Positions 32,232-47,555 of a DNA stretch of 64,000 nt are shown here, piece after piece. Position 1 is the first letter of the stretch; each line of letters begins with the position of its first letter. The notes below the pieces were generated by a model, which worked only from the letters and a program-made list of their open reading frames with translations, was not told the origin of the DNA and ran no database searches. Location of the stretch: the IMG/VR virus record IMGVR_UViG_3300032103_000073. One strand, written 5' to 3'. A program made the position numbers and the translations under genes. The stretch comes from a virus. Taxonomy: Duplodnaviria > Heunggongvirae > Uroviricota > Caudoviricetes.

Positions 32232-33710
32232 ATGATAATGTCGGGGAAACCTATCACAGTGCTCAAACGTAGCGGAGAGCATGAATTATTGCAAATTGAA
32301 AAGTGGCAAGCTCAGATTTCTAAAGTATGCACTGGTATTGCAGATGTTAGCCAAAGCATGATTGAAATCAAAGCTCAACCTCATTTCTTTGATGGAATTA
32401 CTACAAGAGAAATTGACGAAATTACTCTACGTGCAATTGTAAATTTAATAGACGTAGAATCTAATCCAGAAATAGGACATACAAATTATCAATACGTAGC
32501 AGGAAAGCAGCGATTAAGCATGCTACGAAAAGATGTGTACGGTGACTACCAAGTACCGCATATTTTTGAAATAGTAAAAAAGAACGTAGCGGTTGGTTTA
32601 TACACTCCTGAACTACTGGAATGGTATACAGAAGCAGACTGGAATAAGATGAATGACATGCTGGATCATGAGAAAGATGAACAGTATAGTTATGCAGCTA
32701 TCGAACAGTTAATTGAAAAATATCTAGTTCGCAATCGTGCTACAAAAGAAATTTATGAAACACCGCAGATCCGTTATATGGTTGCGGCAGCAACAGTTAT
32801 GCATAAAGAAGAGCCTAATAGCGCTCGTATGAGATTGATTAAGGAATACTACAATGCTTCTAGTGATGGGCTCTTTACTCTTGCTACACCTGTTCTTGCT
32901 GGTCTTGGCACTCCGACAAAACAATTTAGTAGTTGTGTGCTTATCAGGAGCGATGATGATTTGGATAGTATATTTGCTAGTGGCGAAATGATGGCCAAGT
33001 ATGCTAGCAAACGTGCTGGCATTGGCTTAGAGATTGGTCGCTTGCGCAGTCTAGGAAGTCCTATTAGGGGCGGCGAAATTATGCACACTGGTATGGTACC
33101 ATTCTTAAAGAAATGGTTTGGTGATCTACGCAGTTGCAGTCAAGGAGGTATTCGTAATGCTAGTGCTACGGTTTTCTATCCCATCTGGCATCATCAATTC
33201 GATGACCTTATTGTTCTCAAGAACAACCAAGGAACAGACGAAACTCGTGTCCGCCACATGGATTATGGTGTTGTGCTTTCTGCGTTTTTCTGGAGGAGAC
33301 TCAAGAACAAAGAAAATATTACCTTCTTTGACCCTAATGAAGTTCCCGACCTCTACGAAGCGTTCTATTCAAATACGGACAAGTTCAACGAACTTTATGA
33401 ACTGTATGAAAAGCGTACAGACCTACGTAAAAAAGTAATGTCAGCTGAAGAAGTATTCAAAGGCGGCATACTTAAAGAACGTACAGACACTGGACGCATA
33501 TATCTAGTATTCATTGACAACGTGATGAATCAAGGTCCGTTCGACCCTGAATACCATACAATTTATCAATCGAATTTGTGTCTGGAGATTTTGCTTCCGA
33601 CAGTTGCAATGGGAACAACTAAGAAAAAACTAATTAAAGTCCGCAAAAACAAAGCAAGTGATTTCTTAATGAACAAACCGGAGCAGTTTGTAAAATTGAA
33701 GAAGTTATAA
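32232..33710 (+). CDS. nrdA: ribonucleotide reductase class Ia alpha, N-terminal piece
   Basis: ATP-cone, ATPVLAG, FSSCVL (C225-equivalent), SNLCLE (N437/C439/E441-equivalent), then Lys-rich tail and TAA. Confidence 0.92.
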   Translation: MIMSGKPITVLKRSGEHELLQIEKWQAQISKVCTGIADVSQSMIEIKAQPHFFDGITTREIDEITLRAIVNLIDVESNPEIGHTNYQYVAGKQRLSMLRKDVYGDYQVPHIFEIVKKNVAVGLYTPELLEWYTEADWNKMNDMLDHEKDEQYSYAAIEQLIEKYLVRNRATKEIYETPQIRYMVAAATVMHKEEPNSARMRLIKEYYNASSDGLFTLATPVLAGLGTPTKQFSSCVLIRSDDDLDSIFASGEMMAKYASKRAGIGLEIGRLRSLGSPIRGGEIMHTGMVPFLKKWFGDLRSCSQGGIRNASATVFYPIWHHQFDDLIVLKNNQGTDETRVRHMDYGVVLSAFFWRRLKNKENITFFDPNEVPDLYEAFYSNTDKFNELYELYEKRTDLRKKVMSAEEVFKGGILKERTDTGRIYLVFIDNVMNQGPFDPEYHTIYQSNLCLEILLPTVAMGTTKKKLIKVRKNKASDFLMNKPEQFVKLKKL

Positions 33711-33766: not shown

Positions 33767-34537
33767 ATGAACTACTCGGGTTTTATATATGAATGGACAA
33801 ATAAGTTAGACGGTATGAAGTATTTGGGTTCACATAAAGGAACTATAAATGATGGTTATACTGGCAGCGGAAAAAGATTTGAAAATGCCAAGAACAAATA
33901 TGGTATTGAAAATTTTGATAGAGTAATAGTAGAATATGTTGAAAAGGAAGAAGATATTTTGATTAGAGAGCAATATTATTTGGACGAAAGAGATTGTGCC
34001 AAAAGTACTCTCTACTATAATATCTCACCCAACGCAGGTGGCGGCGGTGCAGCGGGCAATGGTCCTAAAATATCTGCTACTAAGAAAAAGAGATTTGCTT
34101 CCGGAGACTTAGTAACACACAACAAAGGTAAGGCAATGAAGGATGAGCAAAAACTTAAATTAGCCGACGAGTGGGAAGTTATTACCCCTGCTAACGAAGT
34201 TTTGACTATCACTAATATGCTTGAATTTTGTCGTCAACATAAACTAAATGCCAGTGCTATGAGCGCCGTGGCCCGTGGCAAGAAGAGTATGTATAAAGGT
34301 TATAAATGTAAAAAGTTAACCAATAAAAGAGATGTTGAATATGAACACAAAGAATATGTGTTTATGACTAAAGAGGAAAGAAGTCAACAACTAAAAGATT
34401 TGGCCATAAAGGGCGGAAAACATCACGAAGCAGTAAAGATTGAATACGAAGGTGTTGTTTATAGTAGTATCGCAGAAGCAAAAGAAGCAACAGGAAAAAG
34501 TTATTTTTTGATTACGAAATATGGAAAAAGAATATGA
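33767..34537 (+). mobile_element. GIY-YIG homing endonuclease inserted within nrdA
   Basis: GFIYEWTNKLDGMKYLGSH..Y.GSG; SD AGGAGG; GATAAATA at 33741. Confidence 0.88.
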
Positions 34538-34815
34538 TTACATTTTATCCTCGTGATATAGGAATGTGGAGAAAAGAATTTAATTTCAGTGATAGACATT
34601 CAATTACATTAGAAGCAAAAGAATATGCTGACCGAAAAGTATTGTATGACCGAGACGAACTAATTGGATTTCTGAAGGAACACGGCGTTAAATTGGATGA
34701 CCCAAATAACCCACTAAGAATTACAGGACCGCACGACAACGAATGGCTTGGGCCAGACACATACGATGTGGTGCAATGGTCTTTACTAGGATGGATTAAG
34801 GATGATTACAAATGA
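34534..34815 (+). CDS. hypothetical cargo protein within the nrdA insertion
   Basis: ATGA overlaps with both the endonuclease and the nrdA C-piece. Confidence 0.6.
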   Translation: MITFYPRDIGMWRKEFNFSDRHSITLEAKEYADRKVLYDRDELIGFLKEHGVKLDDPNNPLRITGPHDNEWLGPDTYDVVQWSLLGWIKDDYK

Positions 34816-35843
34816 ATGAATTATATGAAGAAATAGAACGTCTTCCAGAAGAACTGGATGATGAATATGAGTACTATGAGGTAGATGAAGATGCCGCGAG
34901 GATTAGTTTATGCACTCTCGGTAGTATTAACTGGGGTGCTTTCCGCAATCCAGAGGACATGCGCCGTGCTTGTCGTATCCTGCATCGTAGCCTTAATAAC
35001 ATTCTTGACTATCAAGATTTCTTAAGTATTCAATCTAAACTATCTAATGATGAAATCCGCCCTCTTGGCATCGGTGTCACTAACTTGGCCTACTGGCACG
35101 CCAAACGCGGTATGCAGTACGGCGAACGAGATGCACTGGCAGAAGTTAAGACATGGATGGAACACCAAGCATATTATCTAACAGAAATGTCGGTTGAGTT
35201 GGCTAAAGAACGCGGCGCGTGTGTTGATAGTGGTAAGACACGTTATGGACAAGGCGTGTTCCCCTGGGAGTTACGTGCAGATGGTGCCAACGAGCTAACA
35301 GACTTTACCCCGGAGTTAGATTGGGAAACACTACGTGCCAACATGAAACAATATGGTGTTCGTAATGCTACACAAATGGCAGTTGCACCAGTCGAGTCTA
35401 GCAGTGTTGTTATCAATAGCACAAACGGTATTGAAATGCCAATGAGCTTGATTAGCACAAAAGAATCAAAAGCCGGTAGCTTTACACAAGTCGTTCCTGA
35501 GTATAATAATGCCAGAGTTCGTAAAAACTACCAACTAATGTGGGAACAGCGTGATTGTATTGGGTACTTAAAGACCAGTGCAGTTATTGCAGCATATACA
35601 GATCAAAGTATTAGTACTAACACATTTTACAATCCTGCATATTTTGCAGATAAAAAAGTACCAACAACATTGATTGCTAAAAACCTAATGCTAGCACATC
35701 ACTGGGGATTAAAGACTTTCTACTATAGTTTAATTAACAAGCAAGGTGCAAAAGTAGCACAAGATGAAAATATCATCCATCTCAACACAGTTAAACAAGA
35801 TCAAGAAGAAGATGACGGTGTTTGCGAAAGTTGTGTATTATAA
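34812..35843 (+). CDS. nrdA: ribonucleotide reductase class Ia alpha, C-terminal piece
   Basis: Acidic leader, ISLCTLGSINWG (C462-equivalent), AVAPVESSS, KTFYY Tyr pair, terminal CESC. Confidence 0.92.
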   Translation: MNELYEEIERLPEELDDEYEYYEVDEDAARISLCTLGSINWGAFRNPEDMRRACRILHRSLNNILDYQDFLSIQSKLSNDEIRPLGIGVTNLAYWHAKRGMQYGERDALAEVKTWMEHQAYYLTEMSVELAKERGACVDSGKTRYGQGVFPWELRADGANELTDFTPELDWETLRANMKQYGVRNATQMAVAPVESSSVVINSTNGIEMPMSLISTKESKAGSFTQVVPEYNNARVRKNYQLMWEQRDCIGYLKTSAVIAAYTDQSISTNTFYNPAYFADKKVPTTLIAKNLMLAHHWGLKTFYYSLINKQGAKVAQDENIIHLNTVKQDQEEDDGVCESCVL

Positions 35844-35885: not shown

Positions 35886-36476
35886 ATGAAAGAAAAATAT
35901 GGCCTGACAAAACAATGCAGTTATTGCGGCTCGGCTTTTATTACAAAGCCTAGATTTATAGATTTTTGTTCGCAGAAATGTAAAAATCCTTTAAATAGGG
36001 GAGAGTTTGATCCTTGGAATAAAGGGTTAAAATTGACTGAAGAACAGAAATCTAAACAAAACACTTCTGGCTTGTTAAAAGGACATGGATGGAACAAAGG
36101 TCTTCCAAATGAAAAACAAAGCAAAAAATGGAAAGAAAATAATCCAAATAAAGATGGTAGATTAAATAATTTACGTCCAAAGTCCTATGTAGATGATGAA
36201 TTTACAGCATACAAGAGAGAAGTCCGTAAAGCAACGTATCGTTCTCGCTATCAAATGAAAATAGATGGAGAGATACCGTTAAACACAGGAAAGCGTAAAG
36301 ATCAGTTTCAGCTTGATCATATCGTTCCTTATAAACAGGGTTTTGAGTTAGGAATACCGCCGCATATATTAGGTAGCAAGAGCAATCTAAGGTGGATACT
36401 GGGGGAAGAAAACAGACAAAAATAGGATCGCTTCCAACCAGATGATGTTATTAATAAATTACTAAAGGGAAAATAA
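35886..36476 (+). mobile_element. zinc-finger/NUMOD3/HNH endonuclease with in-frame TAG at 36423-36425
   Basis: C..C...FCSQKC, PWNKG/GWNKG, LDHIVP...SNLR...EENR; frame stays open 16 codons past TAG to a TAA overlapping the iscU ATG. Confidence 0.75.
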
Positions 36477-36878
36477 TGGCTTACAGCGAAAAAGTTATAG
36501 ATCATTATGAGCAACCTCGGAACGTAGGATCTTTTGTCAAGGATGAGCCGCATGTCGGCACCGGCATAGTCGGTGCACCGGCATGCGGCTAGACTAGGCG
36601 ATGTAATGAAGTTGCAAATAAAAGTAAATCCAGAAACAGGCATAATCGAAGATGCACGTTTTAAAACTTACGGCTGCGGCAGTGCTATTGCTAGCTCTAG
36701 CCTAGTTACTGAATTAGTCAAGGGAATGACATTGGATCAAGCAACAAGTATTAAAAATTCTGCCATAGCAGAAGAACTTGCATTACCTCCTGTTAAGATT
36801 CACTGTAGTATTTTAGCAGAAGATGCGATTAAAGCAGCAGTAGAGGATTATAAAAAGAAAAATGATCACTCTAACTGA
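36476..36878 (+). CDS. iscU: Fe-S scaffold IscU interrupted by a 10-nt insert (putative ribosomal bypass)
   Basis: MAYSEKVIDHYEQPRNVGSF...GAPACG (36476-36589) and DVMKLQIKV...KTYGCGSAIAS...PPVKIHCS (36600-36878) join into canonical IscU once 10 nt are removed. Confidence 0.9.
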
Positions 36879-42920: not shown

Positions 42921-43218
42921 TGCAGCAAATGCTCTTAAAGATTTTATTATTAGATTTAATATAAAAGACGTTGAAATCGAACAGCAACGAACAGTAGATT
43001 CTATGCCTGTTAGTTGGTATGATCGGTCTTATTCTATCGAGCAGTATTTTACAACTTATCAAATGAATATGGTAAAGTTAAAGTTGCCCGAAGAAAATTT
43101 AAAGCATATAATTAGTCTAATACAAGAATACGAAGATTTACTTGCCGACACTGAGGCAAGAGAATTAGTCAATCAAGCAAAATTTATATATAGGTTAAAA
43201 CATGGCGCAAAGGTCTAA
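42913..43218 (+). CDS. hypothetical protein
   Basis: GTG at 42913 with SD GGAGG. Confidence 0.55.
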   Translation: MSDAANALKDFIIRFNIKDVEIEQQRTVDSMPVSWYDRSYSIEQYFTTYQMNMVKLKLPEENLKHIISLIQEYEDLLADTEARELVNQAKFIYRLKHGAKV

Positions 43219-44041
43219 ATATTGGAGCTGCACTAAATTTGCAGACTGGCTACGTGGAACTAGCAAGCCTAAAATGGGCACAGGCGAGCAATGGGATGAT
43301 TGGCATAGCCTAGCTAGTTCTACTCACAAAATTCGCTATTGGCTAGCAGAAGAAGCACTTGATGCAGTACAAAACTTTATCTGGTGGCCTGTAGATAAAA
43401 TCTATAGCGCCAAGTACTATATCAACAATCGCTGGGTCACTAGCACTCATGCGCTGACTGCAAGCCCTTGTGATATTCGTCCTGGCACTTGGTGTGATGT
43501 AGGTTATCGTTTCCTGCCTTGTTTGTTTAATGAGCTACAAAACTACGTTGAACAAGAACTTGCATGGTGGCACATCGCTTGGGATGACGCTGCAAAGAAA
43601 AAGTACAAAGCACCGTTTTGGGCTCGCGGTTGGTTCCGCTGGCGCACATGGCGTTGTCCCGAAGCGGGTATCGCTAACCTCGAATGGCAACAGAGTTTAA
43701 CAAACAGTTATCTCAACGAAGATCACGCGGACTATAATAAGCCAAGTCCTCAAGCCAAAGACGCCGCAGAAATTCTTGCCCTTTACAAATGGTGGACAGA
43801 AGTTTATCGCAACCGTCCTGATCCTCATGAAGCTAGTGGCTGGAGCGCCTACTGCGACGAAAAGCGCAATCTAAATCCCGGCTCCGTGAGCTTGTTTAAC
43901 AGCAAGAACGAAACAAAAGAAATGAAAAAGCGCGGTATTAAAGCACTTGACCTTTCTCGTAAGATTGAGCAAGGCTATGAGCGAGAAGATGAAAAGATGA
44001 TGATCCGTTTGATCAAAATTCGACATAAGTTGTGGACATGA
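43202..44041 (+). CDS. Trp-rich hypothetical protein
   Basis: 279-aa ORF. Confidence 0.65.
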   Translation: MAQRSKYWSCTKFADWLRGTSKPKMGTGEQWDDWHSLASSTHKIRYWLAEEALDAVQNFIWWPVDKIYSAKYYINNRWVTSTHALTASPCDIRPGTWCDVGYRFLPCLFNELQNYVEQELAWWHIAWDDAAKKKYKAPFWARGWFRWRTWRCPEAGIANLEWQQSLTNSYLNEDHADYNKPSPQAKDAAEILALYKWWTEVYRNRPDPHEASGWSAYCDEKRNLNPGSVSLFNSKNETKEMKKRGIKALDLSRKIEQGYEREDEKMMIRLIKIRHKLWT

Positions 44042-44463
44042 TTGAAAATCGCCGGGCACATTACGACTACGAAATACTCGAAACCTACGAGAGCGGGCTC
44101 GTGCTAGAATCTTGGGAAGTTAAAGCCATCGCAGCCAAGACTTGCAACATTGCTGGCTCGCACTGTAAGGTTATGAACGGAGCAATCTACTTGATCGGTG
44201 CCAGCATTGGATCAAGTGACAATGAACAACAGCGTAGCCGCAAACTGCTATTGCACAGTAGAGAAATCAGCCGTTTGATTGGCCAAACACAAGAAAAAGG
44301 CTTGACACTTGTGCCTTTGCGAGTATATAATAAGAATGGAAAGTTTAAGTTAGCTATGGGTCTTGCCAAGGGTAAGAAAGAGTTTGACAAGCGCGAGACT
44401 GAAAAGAAACGCACTATTGAAAACGAAACTCGTCGTATTGTAAAGAGCCAAAAGTTAGCATAA
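44038..44463 (+). CDS. smpB: SsrA-binding protein SmpB
   Basis: NRRAHYDY...YESGLVL..WEVK, RSRKLLLH, GLTLVP, GLAKGKK.FDKRE; adjacent to tmRNA. Confidence 0.92.
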   Translation: MIENRRAHYDYEILETYESGLVLESWEVKAIAAKTCNIAGSHCKVMNGAIYLIGASIGSSDNEQQRSRKLLLHSREISRLIGQTQEKGLTLVPLRVYNKNGKFKLAMGLAKGKKEFDKRETEKKRTIENETRRIVKSQKLA

Positions 44464-44475
44464 ATAGTTTTAACA

Positions 44476-44765
44476 GCGTAAAGTGAAATAAAGAACGTGG
44501 TTCAAGAAAGGGGTTCAAATCCCCTGTCCTCCACCAAAAGCATTATCACAATTAAGGGTTGGTTGCCAGATATAGACCAGATAATGCTTTTGATGGGGGA
44601 CCTCCGGAATCGATTGGGCCGTAAGTAAGTATTTTATCGCTCGGGAATGTAGAACTCGTTAGGATTGGGGTAACCCGGTCGAAGAAGCAAAACAAAGTAA
44701 ACGCAAACTCTGACGTATACGAATTGGCAGCGTAAGCTGACTTGGGTAACTATACCTCGAAACAG
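44476..44765 (+). ncRNA. ssrA: circularly permuted (two-piece) tmRNA
   Basis: T-arm AGGGG-TTCAAAT-CCCCT and GTCCTCC-A-CCA (44509-44536) lie upstream of the 5' strand GGGGGAC (44595) with G3.U70; tag ORF ANSDVYELAA* at 44703-44735. Outer ends approximate. Confidence 0.9.
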
Positions 44766-44773
44766 AAAATAGC

Positions 44774-44800
44774 AATAGGACCTTCGGGTCCTATTTTCTT
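44774..44800. terminator. intrinsic terminator after tmRNA
   Basis: AATAGGACC-TTCG-GGTCCTATT plus T-tract. Confidence 0.8.
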
Positions 44801-46091
44801 ATACAATTTCCTGCCAGCCTAACTGTGCCATAACATCAGCGTTATTAGCAGTTGATGTAAGAGCAAGAGTGATTATATCACTCACACCGGCAACACTGCG
44901 ACCTAATTGACACTGGAAAGCATCTGCACTTAACATTGCAACTTCTCTACTGCTAGTATAACCGCTTTGCAACTCAACACCTCCGGTTATAGCAGTTGCA
45001 CCTGTATCATATTTGACTGTTCCTGTTGTGCTAGTACCGGACCAAGTTGCTCCTGTTAAGCTAGGATTTAACAATAAGACCCAACGATAGTAATTGACAC
45101 TTGGGCTTAAAATATCAACTTGTCTTGGTAAAACAATACTGTCTAGTCTATTAGAATCTAATTTTATACTGACCATTGGGTAATAAGTACCGGCAGTTAC
45201 TAATCTCTTTTGATTGATTCCAGTTCCGGCACTTTCGGTACAGCTAAATCCCTCGTAGCCGCCTTCGCTAATAACACTGCTACAAATCTGTTTGATACTA
45301 ACACTAGCGCCTGTGCTGATTAATTCGTACCTAATAGGTAGTCTAGCAGTAGTCATATAAACACTGTCTATTAAATTGGCATGATTAAAAATGTGTGCAA
45401 TATAATAGTTACCATTTATAACAAACCCGGTTCTAACACTGCCGACACCTAGCCACTCGATATCAACAAACATAATCTGTGCTTTAGTAGTGTCTAGTGT
45501 TATACCACTTGGTCCTGTTCCATCTAATCTATCTACATTCCATTGTGATTGATCGACAGCAGTATCAACGACTGACCCGGTTATATAACTTCGCTTGCAC
45601 ATGCGTAACTGACCATTTGACTTTTCTAAATAAATCCCATTTTGTGCGCTAAAATAACCTGCACGTTGAGTAACTCCGGCAGTGCCAGCAGACATAACAA
45701 AAGTATTAAACACTAACAAACTCTTGCCGGGTTGATAGGCAAATACTCTTTTAGATTCGGCTACGACACTGCCTTCACCTGAGCAACTTAATCTTACGCT
45801 ACTTTCGTTTGGCAAATAAGTAGCGGCGCCTGCGCCGCTAGCACCATAGCTGAATTTGTCATTTAGGCGATATCTGTTCTGACTGTCGAAAATAGTGTAA
45901 GGGCTGCTGACACGTAGTCTTCCGAACGCATCAGTTGCGGCATTTACGTTGCCGCCACCACCTACACTAGGGTTACCTCCTGTGCTAAACCTAGCAGCGA
46001 CCCTAATCTCAGGCTGGGACTGCGGGTTATACTGCATTGTTTGGTGCAAGTTAAATAATTTTGGGTCGTCGGGGTGTTGATAGTTAGACAT
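44799..46091 (-). CDS. Gly/Ser/Thr-rich beta-sandwich (probable virion) protein
   Basis: ATG at 46091 with SD AAGGA; beta-rich composition. Confidence 0.6.
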   Translation of the reverse strand: MSNYQHPDDPKLFNLHQTMQYNPQSQPEIRVAARFSTGGNPSVGGGGNVNAATDAFGRLRVSSPYTIFDSQNRYRLNDKFSYGASGAGAATYLPNESSVRLSCSGEGSVVAESKRVFAYQPGKSLLVFNTFVMSAGTAGVTQRAGYFSAQNGIYLEKSNGQLRMCKRSYITGSVVDTAVDQSQWNVDRLDGTGPSGITLDTTKAQIMFVDIEWLGVGSVRTGFVINGNYYIAHIFNHANLIDSVYMTTARLPIRYELISTGASVSIKQICSSVISEGGYEGFSCTESAGTGINQKRLVTAGTYYPMVSIKLDSNRLDSIVLPRQVDILSPSVNYYRWVLLLNPSLTGATWSGTSTTGTVKYDTGATAITGGVELQSGYTSSREVAMLSADAFQCQLGRSVAGVSDIITLALTSTANNADVMAQLGWQEIV

Positions 46092-46142
46092 AATAGTATC
46101 CTTTTTAGTATTTACCAAAATTTTGGCAAACTAAATAACACT

Positions 46143-47478: not shown

Positions 47479-47555
47479 GCGCTAGTAGCCCGTAAGGTAA
47501 GGGCAGCTGATTCTAAACCAGAGTGTAGCAGGTTCGATTCCTGTCTAGCGCACCA
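47479..47555 (+). tRNA. tRNA with CUA anticodon (putative amber suppressor)
   Basis: GCGCTAG/CTAGCGC acceptor, GCCC/GGGC D-stem, loop TT-CTA-AA, GCAGG-TTCGATT-CCTGT T-arm, A73, encoded CCA; anticodon stem only 3 of 5 Watson-Crick pairs. Confidence 0.8.

What the first reader, a model, noticed from the sequence alone, without database searches (positions are those of the whole stretch)
44038..44800. Phage-encoded circularly permuted tmRNA next to its own SmpB
Seen: the acceptor piece (T-arm, GTCCTCC-ACCA ending at 44536) precedes the coding piece (GGGGGAC at 44595, G3.U70). They are separated by an intervening hairpin (AAAAGCATTATC/GATAATGCTTTT). P2-like pairing links GGTTCAA (44499) and TTGGGCC (44614). 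The tag is (A)ANSDVYELAA. A late-type CATAAATA lies upstream and a terminator downstream. Established: permuted ssrA is known in alphaproteobacteria, some cyanobacteria and some betaproteobacteria. Inference: a phage two-piece tmRNA-SmpB pair may be captured or an independent permutation, and could rescue ribosomes stalled by the phage's own recoding sites.
Basis: partly seen in the sequence, partly recalled or inferred. Interest (0 to 1): 0.7.

Follow-up and report, generated by a model that had tools for sequence, protein, structure and literature searches.

The report
Jumbo-phage two-piece tmRNA with SmpB
An uncultured giant phage carries a complete ribosome-rescue kit: a split ("two-piece") tmRNA gene directly behind its own SmpB protein gene. 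The kit looks real and functional, but it is a new member of a kind already described in phages, not a new kind of system.

Summary
ARAGORN calls a permuted tmRNA at 44444-44826 with tag ANSDVYELAA. Rfam tmRNA_permuted scores 74.6 bits against a threshold of 47. The ORF at 44038-44463 is a full-length SmpB (Pfam, 150 bits).

The window is a T4-like jumbo phage. Its terminase is 55% identical to that of Pseudomonas phage PA5oct, and its contig is 267 kb. The layout is not a mis-assembly. The same tmRNA family occurs on 48 IMG/VR viral contigs. Across them there are at least 9 different, always complementary acceptor stems (G3.U70 kept), covarying T stems, and a variable spacer that always closes into a 9-13 bp stem.

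The SmpB belongs to a monophyletic clade found only on metagenomic contigs (>=120 clusters, 65-100% identical). It is at most 51% identical to any bacterial SmpB. It does not sit inside the Beta/Gammaproteobacteria clade.

The donor lineage of the tmRNA is unresolved. Some members fit the beta model best and others the alpha model.

A "late" promoter is not supported. A perfect sigma-70 promoter inside smpB is the better candidate. I found no stop-codon reassignment in the window.

Phage two-piece tmRNAs (PMC9004378) and huge-phage tmRNA and SmpB (PMC7162821) are published. This scan has also noted phage two-piece tmRNAs on many other genomes. Verdict: new member of a known kind, of modest interest.

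The parts
44038..44463 (+). smpB, 141 aa, full length including the C-terminal tail with the DKR motif. Its ATG overlaps the TGA stop of the upstream ORF (ATGA).
   Evidence: Pfam PF01668 scores 150.4 bits over profile positions 2-142 of 143. It aligns to solved SmpB chains through the tail, E 4e-33. 51 invariant columns among 12 clade members.
44302..44331 (+). Perfect sigma-70 consensus promoter (TTGACA, 18 nt, TATAAT) inside the 3' part of smpB. It is the candidate promoter of the tmRNA precursor.
   Evidence: 12 of 12 consensus matches. The same offset (+264 in smpB) holds in L004 and L011. In L001, L003, L156, L160, L161, L166, L158 and L172 a perfect TTGACA-N17-TATAAT lies directly upstream of the tmRNA. 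Function is inferred.
44475..44536 (+). Acceptor piece: 3' strands of P2, the T arm (44509-44525), the acceptor 3' strand GTCCTCC (44526-44532), and discriminator plus CCA (44533-44536). The 5' end is uncertain: ARAGORN starts at 44444, the beta model at 44429.
   Evidence: T stem and acceptor stem covary across relatives.
44537..44594 (+). Intervening spacer (58 nt), predicted to be removed during maturation. A closing stem pairs 44537-44547 with 44580-44590. The last 4 nt (TGAT) are unpaired before G1.
   Evidence: ViennaRNA fold gives -13.5 kcal/mol. Relatives have spacers of 23-382 nt with unrelated sequence but the same closing-stem geometry. The spacer is 40% identical to L011 while the flanks are 98-100% identical.
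44595..44773 (+). Coding piece: acceptor 5' strand GGGGGAC (44595-44601), P2 5' strands (including 44614-20), a hairpin at 44643-44656, an invariant 18-nt motif hairpin (44658-44675), the tag ORF, helix 5 and a 3' hairpin.
   Evidence: The distance from G1 to the motif is constant at 61-65 nt in all relatives where it was located.
44703..44735 (+). Tag reading frame: resume codon GCA, peptide ANSDVYELAA, stop TAA.
   Evidence: ARAGORN. Relatives encode ANDSQFALAA, ANDESYALAA, ANDEQFALAA and others at the same place.
44774..44795 (.). Intrinsic-terminator hairpin (9 bp, 4-nt loop) with T runs on both strands. It is shared with the convergent minus-strand virion protein gene at 44799-46118.
   Evidence: Compensatory changes appear in relatives.

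Best explanation
This is a working trans-translation module carried by an uncultured T4-like jumbo phage.

Shown or directly read from sequence: the gene order, the helices, and their covariation.

Inferred mechanism:
1. smpB (44038-44463) is translated, coupled to the upstream gene.
2. The tmRNA precursor is transcribed through 44475-44795. It is made either by read-through from smpB or, more likely, from the consensus sigma-70 promoter at 44302-44331. It ends at the terminator at 44774-44795.
3. The precursor folds so that GGGGGAC (44595) pairs with GTCCTCC (44526).
4. RNase P cuts 5' of G44595, and 3' trimming ends the upstream piece at CCA (44536). The 58-nt spacer is discarded.
5. The acceptor piece and the coding piece stay together through the acceptor stem and the P2 helices.
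6. G3.U70 directs charging with alanine.
7. The phage SmpB binds the tRNA-like domain, and the complex enters ribosomes stalled on broken or stop-less mRNAs.
8. Translation resumes on GCA and adds ANSDVYELAA. The LAA end should direct the product to host ClpXP-type proteases, and the ribosome is released.

The likely benefit is to keep ribosomes free while host and phage mRNAs are being cut during infection. This last step is the least certain.
For: Detection:
- ARAGORN calls a permuted tmRNA.
- RF04321 scores 74.6 bits against 47.
- RF01850 scores 78.6 bits over the full model.
- SmpB scores 150 bits and is full length with its tail.

Selection on structure:
- RNAalifold predicts the P2, T, acceptor, spacer-closing, helix-5 and terminator helices. 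25 of 71 pairs are compensatory and the G.U pair is invariant.
- An alignment-free scan finds 9 distinct acceptor stems, all fully complementary with G3.U70, and more than 10 distinct T stems.

Conservation:
- The SmpB-tmRNA pair recurs in L001-L004, L007, L009, L011, L012 and in 8 of the 11 loci L182-L192; the other three end too soon to show it.
- The tmRNA family is on 48 IMG/VR contigs.
- The SmpB clade has at least 120 clusters, on contigs up to 385 kb. It is monophyletic, SH-aLRT 96.
- Consensus sigma-70 promoters sit directly upstream of the tmRNA in many relatives.

Phage identity.
Against: - There are no expression or processing data.
- The window's tmRNA scores slightly below the beta_tmRNA threshold (78.6 against 84).
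- Its tag differs from the ANDSQFALAA found in near-identical relatives, and the relative L011 ends in MVA. Tagging for proteolysis may therefore be relaxed in this sub-lineage.
- Two near-complete related genomes (354 kb and 320 kb) carry the tmRNA but no SmpB. The phage SmpB is therefore not required for this tmRNA family to be kept.
- The biological benefit is inferred, not shown.
Confidence: 0.82

Rival explanations
1. The module serves mainly to rescue ribosomes at the phage's own recoding sites: stop-containing hop or bypass inserts, a release-factor gene with an in-frame UGA, and the amber suppressor tRNA.
For: - iscU in this window is split by a short insert that starts with a stop codon. 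One frame ends ...GAPACG at 36592 and the next frame continues ...DVMKLQ.
- Earlier notes of this scan report further such sites in the same genome.
- A tRNA with anticodon CUA lies 3 kb downstream and recurs near smpB in L009, L011 and L013. Read-through past TAG could send ribosomes to mRNA 3' ends.
Against: - A failed hop at a stop codon ends in ordinary release-factor termination, which does not need tmRNA.
- The window shows no stop-codon reassignment. No real gene is split by TAG or TGA, and TAG ends only 3 of 60 plus-strand ORFs.
- The same tmRNA family sits on 48 viral contigs, in varying gene neighbourhoods. Whether those phages have such inserts was not tested, so no link between the two has been shown.
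Confidence: 0.07
2. The RNA and SmpB act as a decoy or hijacker of host trans-translation rather than as a rescue system. They could out-compete host tmRNA so that stalled products receive a phage-chosen tag, or escape degradation, or so that a host abortive response is blocked.
For: - The tag ORF is a replacement hot spot. It is 40% identical to L011 while the preceding 108 nt are 100% identical.
- Tags in the clade include endings MVA, LMAA and AFA, and 28-32-residue tags.
- A phage tRNA-like-domain-only tmRNA (mycobacteriophage DS6A) is discussed as an inhibitor in PMC4131195.
Against: - The window's tag still ends in LAA.
- Most relatives encode canonical proteobacterial tags such as ANDSQFALAA.
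- A full SmpB with an intact tail and all tmRNA helices are under purifying selection, as expected for complete trans-translation.
Confidence: 0.07
3. It is not a phage gene at all. It could be host DNA, a tmRNA fragment left by integration at ssrA, or an assembly chimera that produces an apparent permutation.
For: Most SmpB hits in GenBank 'phage' records are prophage-edge artefacts: smpB lies within the first or last few hundred bases of the record.
Against: - Phage hallmark genes lie on both sides in a 267-kb contig.
- Both tmRNA pieces, the tag and the terminator are complete.
- The permuted order recurs in more than 40 independent contigs from different samples, with covariation.
- The SmpB is at most 51% identical to any bacterial SmpB found.
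Confidence: 0.02

Closest known systems
Phage-encoded two-piece tmRNAs of aquatic myophages (OM43 phage Melnitz, pelagimyophages, cyanophages; PMC9004378)
   Same: A circularly permuted ssrA carried by lytic T4-like phages, placed behind an early-type promoter, with a proposed role in keeping the hijacked translation machinery running.
   Different: - Those phages are not reported to encode SmpB.
- Melnitz's gene carries a glutamine riboswitch and groups with alphaproteobacterial tmRNAs.
- The family here has no blastn match in 50,697 GenBank phage records.
- It types ambiguously between the beta and alpha models.
tmRNA and SmpB of 'huge phages' and Lak megaphages (PMC7162821; GenBank MK2500xx, LR7565xx)
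   Same: Giant phages that carry tmRNA and SmpB as part of a large translation gene set. This genome also has a tRNA array and a release-factor-like gene, according to earlier notes.
   Different: - Their SmpBs are only 31-35% identical to this one, so this is a separate SmpB lineage.
- The paper gives one sentence on the subject and no anatomy, adjacency or permuted form.
Betaproteobacterial two-piece tmRNA (Rfam RF01850; Sharkady and Williams 2004, as cited in PMC9004378)
   Same: - Same gene order: acceptor piece, spacer, coding piece.
- No PK2-PK4 pseudoknots.
- Full-length alignment to the model.
- Four relatives exceed its threshold, at 88-104 bits.
- Proteobacterial tags of the AND..(F/Y)ALAA type.
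   Different: - True Burkholderiales members score 169-296 bits. The window scores 78.6, below the threshold of 84.
- The phage form has a longer P2 and an extra invariant hairpin.
- The SmpBs of those bacteria are 41-44% identical and are not sisters of the phage clade.
- In those bacteria smpB and ssrA are not adjacent.
Caulobacter / alphaproteobacterial two-piece tmRNA (Rfam RF01849; Keiler et al. 2000, as cited in PMC9004378)
   Same: The working model is the same: one precursor is cut into two base-paired RNAs, which are charged with Ala and act with SmpB.
   Different: The SmpB-linked relatives score only 34-45 bits on this model, below its threshold of 50. Some SmpB-less members of the same phage family pass it, at 52-78 bits.
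One-piece tmRNAs of mycobacteriophages (Bxz1 group) and Bacillus phage G (PMC4131195)
   Same: A phage-borne ssrA.
   Different: They have the standard, unpermuted gene form. They have no phage SmpB. Their hosts and phage groups are unrelated.

Membership tests
tmRNA (ssrA), permuted gene form | A tRNA-like domain: a 7-bp acceptor stem with G3.U70, discriminator A plus CCA, and a 5-bp T stem with a 7-nt T loop. | tested here: met
   - GGGGGAC pairs with GTCCTCC, with G.U at position 3.
- ACCA at 44533-44536.
- AGGGG, loop TTCAAAT, CCCCT.
- Covariation in relatives.
tmRNA (ssrA), permuted gene form | The acceptor (3') piece is encoded upstream of the coding (5') piece, separated by a spacer that is not conserved in sequence. 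| tested here: met
   ARAGORN tmRNA* call. RF04321 covers the full model 1-213. Spacers are 23-382 nt with unrelated sequences.
tmRNA (ssrA), permuted gene form | Long-range P2 helices join the tRNA-like domain to the mRNA-like domain. | tested here: met
   RNAalifold pairs columns 56-59/261-264, 64-69/255-260 and 81-86/237-242, with compensatory changes.
tmRNA (ssrA), permuted gene form | A tag reading frame with an Ala resume codon, a hydrophobic C-terminus (..LAA) and a stop codon in helix 5. | tested here: met
   GCA...TAA at 44703-44735 reads ANSDVYELAA. Helix 5 is predicted around the stop.
tmRNA (ssrA), permuted gene form | A pseudoknot (PK1) upstream of the resume codon. | tested here: inconclusive
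   Two adjacent hairpins are predicted at 44643-44656 and 44658-44677. The second is invariant, so covariation cannot test it. No pseudoknot-aware folding was run.
tmRNA (ssrA), permuted gene form | The precursor is processed into two RNAs, is aminoacylated, and tags proteins in vivo. | not testable with these tools
This needs Northern or RACE, a charging assay, and mass spectrometry.
beta_tmRNA subtype (RF01850) | Score at or above the curated threshold of 84 bits. | tested here: not met
   The window scores 78.6 and L011 scores 72.3. Relatives L001-L004 score 88-104. Bona fide bacterial members score 169-296. Other members of the same phage family fit alpha_tmRNA best.
SmpB (PF01668) | A full-length SmpB fold domain scoring above the curated cut-off. 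| tested here: met
   150.4 bits against a cut-off of 27, covering profile positions 2-142 of 143.
SmpB (PF01668) | A basic C-terminal tail with the D-K-R motif needed for entry into the empty mRNA channel (established from E. coli and Thermus work; my own knowledge). | tested here: met
   GKKEFDKRETEKKR...KSQKLA aligns to the tails of solved SmpBs. D117, K118 and R119 are invariant in 12 clade members.
SmpB (PF01668) | Binds its cognate tmRNA's tRNA-like domain. | not tested
   No binding prediction or assay was run. Adjacency and co-conservation are only suggestive.

The most novel reading that the evidence does not exclude
The tmRNA family on these uncultured jumbo phages may be a separate, phage-resident lineage of permuted tmRNA. 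It would be either a fourth independent permutation or the vehicle that moved permuted ssrA between bacterial groups. In one subclade it is paired with an old phage-specific SmpB, forming a self-promoted, portable ribosome-rescue cassette. The tag and spacer of that cassette are swapped between otherwise near-identical phages.
Probability: 0.17. Interest if true: 0.6.

Novelty: new member of a known kind. Interest (0 to 1): 0.3.

Why it matters
It adds a well-documented case to the list of translation genes that giant phages carry. In at least one large uncultured phage clade the RNA and its protein partner travel together, behind host-type promoters. Close relatives make do with the RNA alone.

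That contrast is a natural experiment on when a phage needs its own SmpB. The rapid replacement of the tag between near-identical phages hints that the fate of tagged proteins may be under selection during infection.

None of this changes the current picture of trans-translation.

Tried and rejected
- **Near-identical or distant DNA matches in GenBank phages.** None were found for the window region or for two family members.
- **Typing the donor lineage with covariance models.** SmpB-linked relatives fit beta best (88-104 bits, against alpha 34-45, cyano 29-34, standard at most 26). Other family members fit alpha best, so I dropped 'captured from the beta lineage'.
- **nhmmer with a phage coding-piece profile against 33 Burkholderiales tmRNA loci.** Two-piece (15-32 bits) and one-piece (up to 32 bits) score alike, so this was uninformative.
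- **Fetching alphaproteobacterial tmRNAs.** I tried through two loci labelled Sphingomonadaceae and Martelella, and through the 'class' of the first. None were found. Those genomes are evidently not alphaproteobacteria with this RNA, and two calls were wasted.
- **SmpB tree.** It resolves the phage clade but not its sister. The nearest row is a long-branch 8.9-kb 'Saccharibacteria' MAG contig, which I do not trust as a donor.
- **Stop-codon recoding (TAG, TGA, TAA).** Rejected for this window.
- **T4-type late promoter for the tmRNA.** Rejected as unsupported. TATAAATA itself is mildly enriched in the window and often sits just before gene starts.
- **Whole-record search of the metagenome contigs L006, L007, L009, L011 and L013 for a distant tmRNA.** The records are not held.
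- **The look-up of sequencing runs.** It was closed, so read laying could not be used.
- **Not run:** structure prediction, complex prediction and the representative-protein search. None would have changed the verdict.
Full report
**1. What is in the sequence**

- An ORF starts with ATG at 44038. This ATG overlaps the TGA stop of the upstream ORF, and the ORF ends with TAA at 44461-44463.
- It scores 150.4 bits on Pfam SmpB over almost the whole profile.
- It aligns to solved SmpB structures through the basic C-terminal tail.

Behind the ORF, three detectors find a permuted tmRNA.

- ARAGORN calls a permuted tmRNA at 44444-44826 with tag ANSDVYELAA.
- Rfam tmRNA_permuted (RF04321) matches 44475-44735 at 74.6 bits, against a threshold of 47.
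- beta_tmRNA (RF01850) aligns over its whole length at 78.6 bits, just under its threshold of 84.

The individual elements are all in place.

- T arm at 44509-44525.
- GTCCTCC-ACCA ending at 44536.
- A 58-nt spacer whose ends pair with each other.
- GGGGGAC at 44595, giving a 7-bp acceptor stem with G3.U70.
- GGTTCAA pairing with TTGGGCC.
- A tag frame at 44703-44735.
- A 9-bp terminator at 44774-44795.

**2. Is it a phage, and is the layout real?**

The window is a phage.

- It encodes a T4-type large terminase, 55% identical to Pseudomonas phage PA5oct and 49-51% to the Agrobacterium and Sinorhizobium jumbo phages.
- It also encodes gp32, a UvsX/RecA-like protein, helicases, ribonucleotide reductase, NAMPT, an NMNAT-Nudix protein and virion proteins.
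- There is no nucleotide match in 50,697 GenBank phage records.
- The SmpB look-up shows that the window's own contig is 267 kb.

The permuted layout is not an assembly artefact.

- Four IMG/VR contigs have an SmpB 73-77% identical, followed by a permuted tmRNA.
- An invariant 18-nt motif of the coding piece finds 48 IMG/VR contigs.
- 30 of these are called by ARAGORN. The 14 I then scanned with Rfam all pass RF04321, at 61-109 bits.

**3. Evidence for selection on the two-piece structure**

RNAalifold on five relatives predicts, with no prior input, the P2 helices, T arm, acceptor stem, spacer-closing stem, helix 5 and terminator. 25 of 71 pairs show changes on both sides, and the G.U pair never changes.

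An alignment-free scan gives the same picture.

- There are nine different acceptor stems, including GGGGGAC, GGGCCTG, GGGCCCA, GGGGATG, GGGGGTG, GGGGGAG, GGGGGTC, GGGCCAT and GGGCCAG.
- Each has a perfectly complementary partner located across the spacer.
- There are more than ten different T stems.
- The spacer ranges from 23 to 382 nt with unrelated sequences. It always starts a 9-13 bp stem right after the CCA and ends 4 nt before G1.
- The distance from G1 to the motif stays at 61-65 nt.

This is the signature of a functional precursor that is cut into two base-paired RNAs. The processing itself was not observed.

**4. SmpB**

The protein search returns at least 120 clusters at 65-100% identity. 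All are about 141 aa, and they sit on contigs of up to 385 kb.

Bacterial SmpBs reach at most 51% identity. The SmpBs of the three Burkholderiales genomes that have a true two-piece tmRNA are 41-44% identical.

In a maximum-likelihood tree:

- The phage clade is monophyletic (SH-aLRT 96) on a long stem.
- It lies outside the well-supported Beta/Gammaproteobacteria clade.
- It sits near that clade and Campylobacterota in an unresolved region.

The gene is therefore old in this phage group, and its donor cannot be named.

Among deposited phage genomes, the real phage SmpBs are those of the Lak megaphages and the 630-735 kb 'huge phages'. These are 31-35% identical to this one. The remaining hits are mostly smpB at the very edge of prophage records.

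**5. How tightly are the two genes linked?**

- In SmpB-bearing loci with enough flank, the tmRNA follows within 2.2 kb in almost all cases.
- L006 and L013 have none within 4 kb. In L006, SmpB sits inside a tRNA array.
- Only 4 of the 48 motif-bearing IMG/VR loci show SmpB nearby.
- Two near-complete genomes (354 kb, 98% complete; 320 kb, 92% complete) have the tmRNA and no SmpB at all.

So the tmRNA is the commoner cargo, and SmpB is an addition in one subclade.

SmpBs 97-98% identical to the window's sit between different neighbouring genes in different contigs. The cassette therefore lies in a plastic region or moves.

**6. Which permuted lineage?**

- The SmpB-linked relatives fit the beta model best: 88-104 bits, against alpha 34-45, cyano 29-34 and standard at most 26.
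- Genuine Burkholderiales two-piece tmRNAs score 169-296 bits, and only 3 of 151 sampled genomes have one.
- Other members of the same phage family fit the alpha model best and pass its threshold.
- A sequence profile of the phage coding piece scores one-piece Burkholderiales tmRNAs as high as two-piece ones.

I therefore leave 'capture versus independent permutation' open. On priors I favour old capture followed by divergence.

**7. Promoter and tag**

*Promoter.*
- CATAAATA is not enriched in the window.
- A 12-of-12 sigma-70 promoter lies inside smpB at 44302-44331. It sits at the same offset in L004 and L011.
- In many relatives a perfect TTGACA-N17-TATAAT sits directly before the tmRNA.
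- Expression by host RNA polymerase, probably early, is thus more likely than late expression. This is inferred.

*Tag.*
- Compared with L011 (SmpB 98% identical), the acceptor piece is 98% identical and the 108 nt from G1 to the tag are 100% identical.
- The spacer and the tag ORF are only 40% identical.
- Other near-identical relatives encode ANDSQFALAA.
- The window's tag still ends in LAA. L011 ends in MVA, and more distant relatives have 28-32-residue tags.

**8. The recoding idea**

- The window uses the standard genetic code.
- iscU is indeed split by a short insert that starts with a stop codon, as earlier notes of this scan say.
- An amber-suppressor-type tRNA lies at 47479-47555.
- Failure to hop at a stop codon leads to normal termination, so tmRNA is not obviously needed there.

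The link is possible but untested.

**9. Comparison with what is known**

- Two-piece tmRNAs in phages are published. PMC9004378 reports 53 unique ones among isolate genomes, mostly aquatic.
- Huge phages with tmRNA and SmpB are published (PMC7162821).
- The 2025 tmRNA database lists 79 phage sequences (PMC11915505).
- This scan itself holds many notes on phage two-piece tmRNAs in other genomes.

What is new here is limited to four points:
- a distinct, large, phage-only SmpB clade;
- its tight pairing with a permuted tmRNA behind host-type promoters;
- relatives that carry the RNA alone;
- the tag and spacer as replacement hot spots.

Verdict: real, very probably functional, a new member of a known kind, and of modest interest.

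Noticed in passing
window 47479-47555 (+); also L009:8352-8425, L011:7472-7548, L013:7167-7242: A tRNA with anticodon CUA (amber-suppressor type) lies about 3 kb downstream of smpB and recurs at a similar distance in three relatives. TAG ends only 3 of 60 large plus-strand ORFs. No gene in the window is split by TAG.
   Followed up: partly
window 36458-36878: iscU is split. One frame ends ...GAPACG at a stop at 36590-36592, and another frame continues ...DVMKLQIKV. This fits the short stop-initiated insert that earlier notes of this scan describe as a ribosome hop.
   Followed up: partly
window 44537-44594 and 44703-44735, compared with L011: The spacer and the tag ORF are only 40% identical to a relative whose flanking tmRNA parts are 98-100% identical. 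These look like patch-wise replacements rather than gradual drift.
   Followed up: partly
L006:6866-7284: A GOLLD RNA (Rfam, 212 bits) lies in a 385-kb metagenomic phage contig, inside a 14-tRNA array that also contains the SmpB gene. No tmRNA lies within 4 kb.
   Followed up: no
L135, L139, L150 (spacers of 232, 220 and 382 nt); L161; L167 and L174: Some relatives have very long tmRNA spacers. One spacer (L161) contains a tRNA-like T-arm sequence. Two (L167, L174) contain ATG-initiated stretches that might be small genes, as earlier notes of this scan report for related phages.
   Followed up: no
L135, L138, L139, L145, L147, L150, L159, L160, L167, L171, L173: A subgroup of the same tmRNA family, with no SmpB in the locus, has GGCAGTG in place of the usual TTCRANT T loop. 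It still scores 81-109 bits on tmRNA_permuted where scanned.
   Followed up: no
L007:4603-5039, L009:5681-6148, L012:4407-4877: More distant SmpB-linked tmRNAs carry 28-32-residue tags. Examples are AKTSTT...MEMVA and a close variant in a second phage. These tags do not end in LAA. They score just below the RF04321 threshold, at 41-46 bits.
   Followed up: no
L182-L191 compared with window 43202-46118: SmpBs 97-98% identical to the window's are flanked by different genes in different contigs: an oxidoreductase, a DUF6934 protein, or unrelated ORFs upstream, and 297-aa or 489-aa ORFs downstream. In two contigs a 129-aa ORF is inserted between smpB and the tmRNA.
   Followed up: partly
window 32232-33710, 33767-34537, 34812-35843: Two separate ORFs both match the ribonucleotide reductase large subunit. 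The second matches only the C-terminal barrel (profile positions 220-522). A 256-aa ORF lies between them. This may be a split or invaded gene.
   Followed up: no
window 6187, 20994, 31686, 39263, 62701 (+): TATAAATA (the T4 late-promoter consensus) occurs 11 times against 5.6 expected. Several copies lie 10-30 nt before gene starts, so the phage probably does use T4-type late promoters, though not for the tmRNA.
   Followed up: partly
G001 (Herminiimonas contaminans) and G002 (Burkholderiales MAG): L130-L133: Each of these two bacterial genomes has two SmpB genes belonging to different sub-branches of the tree.
   Followed up: no
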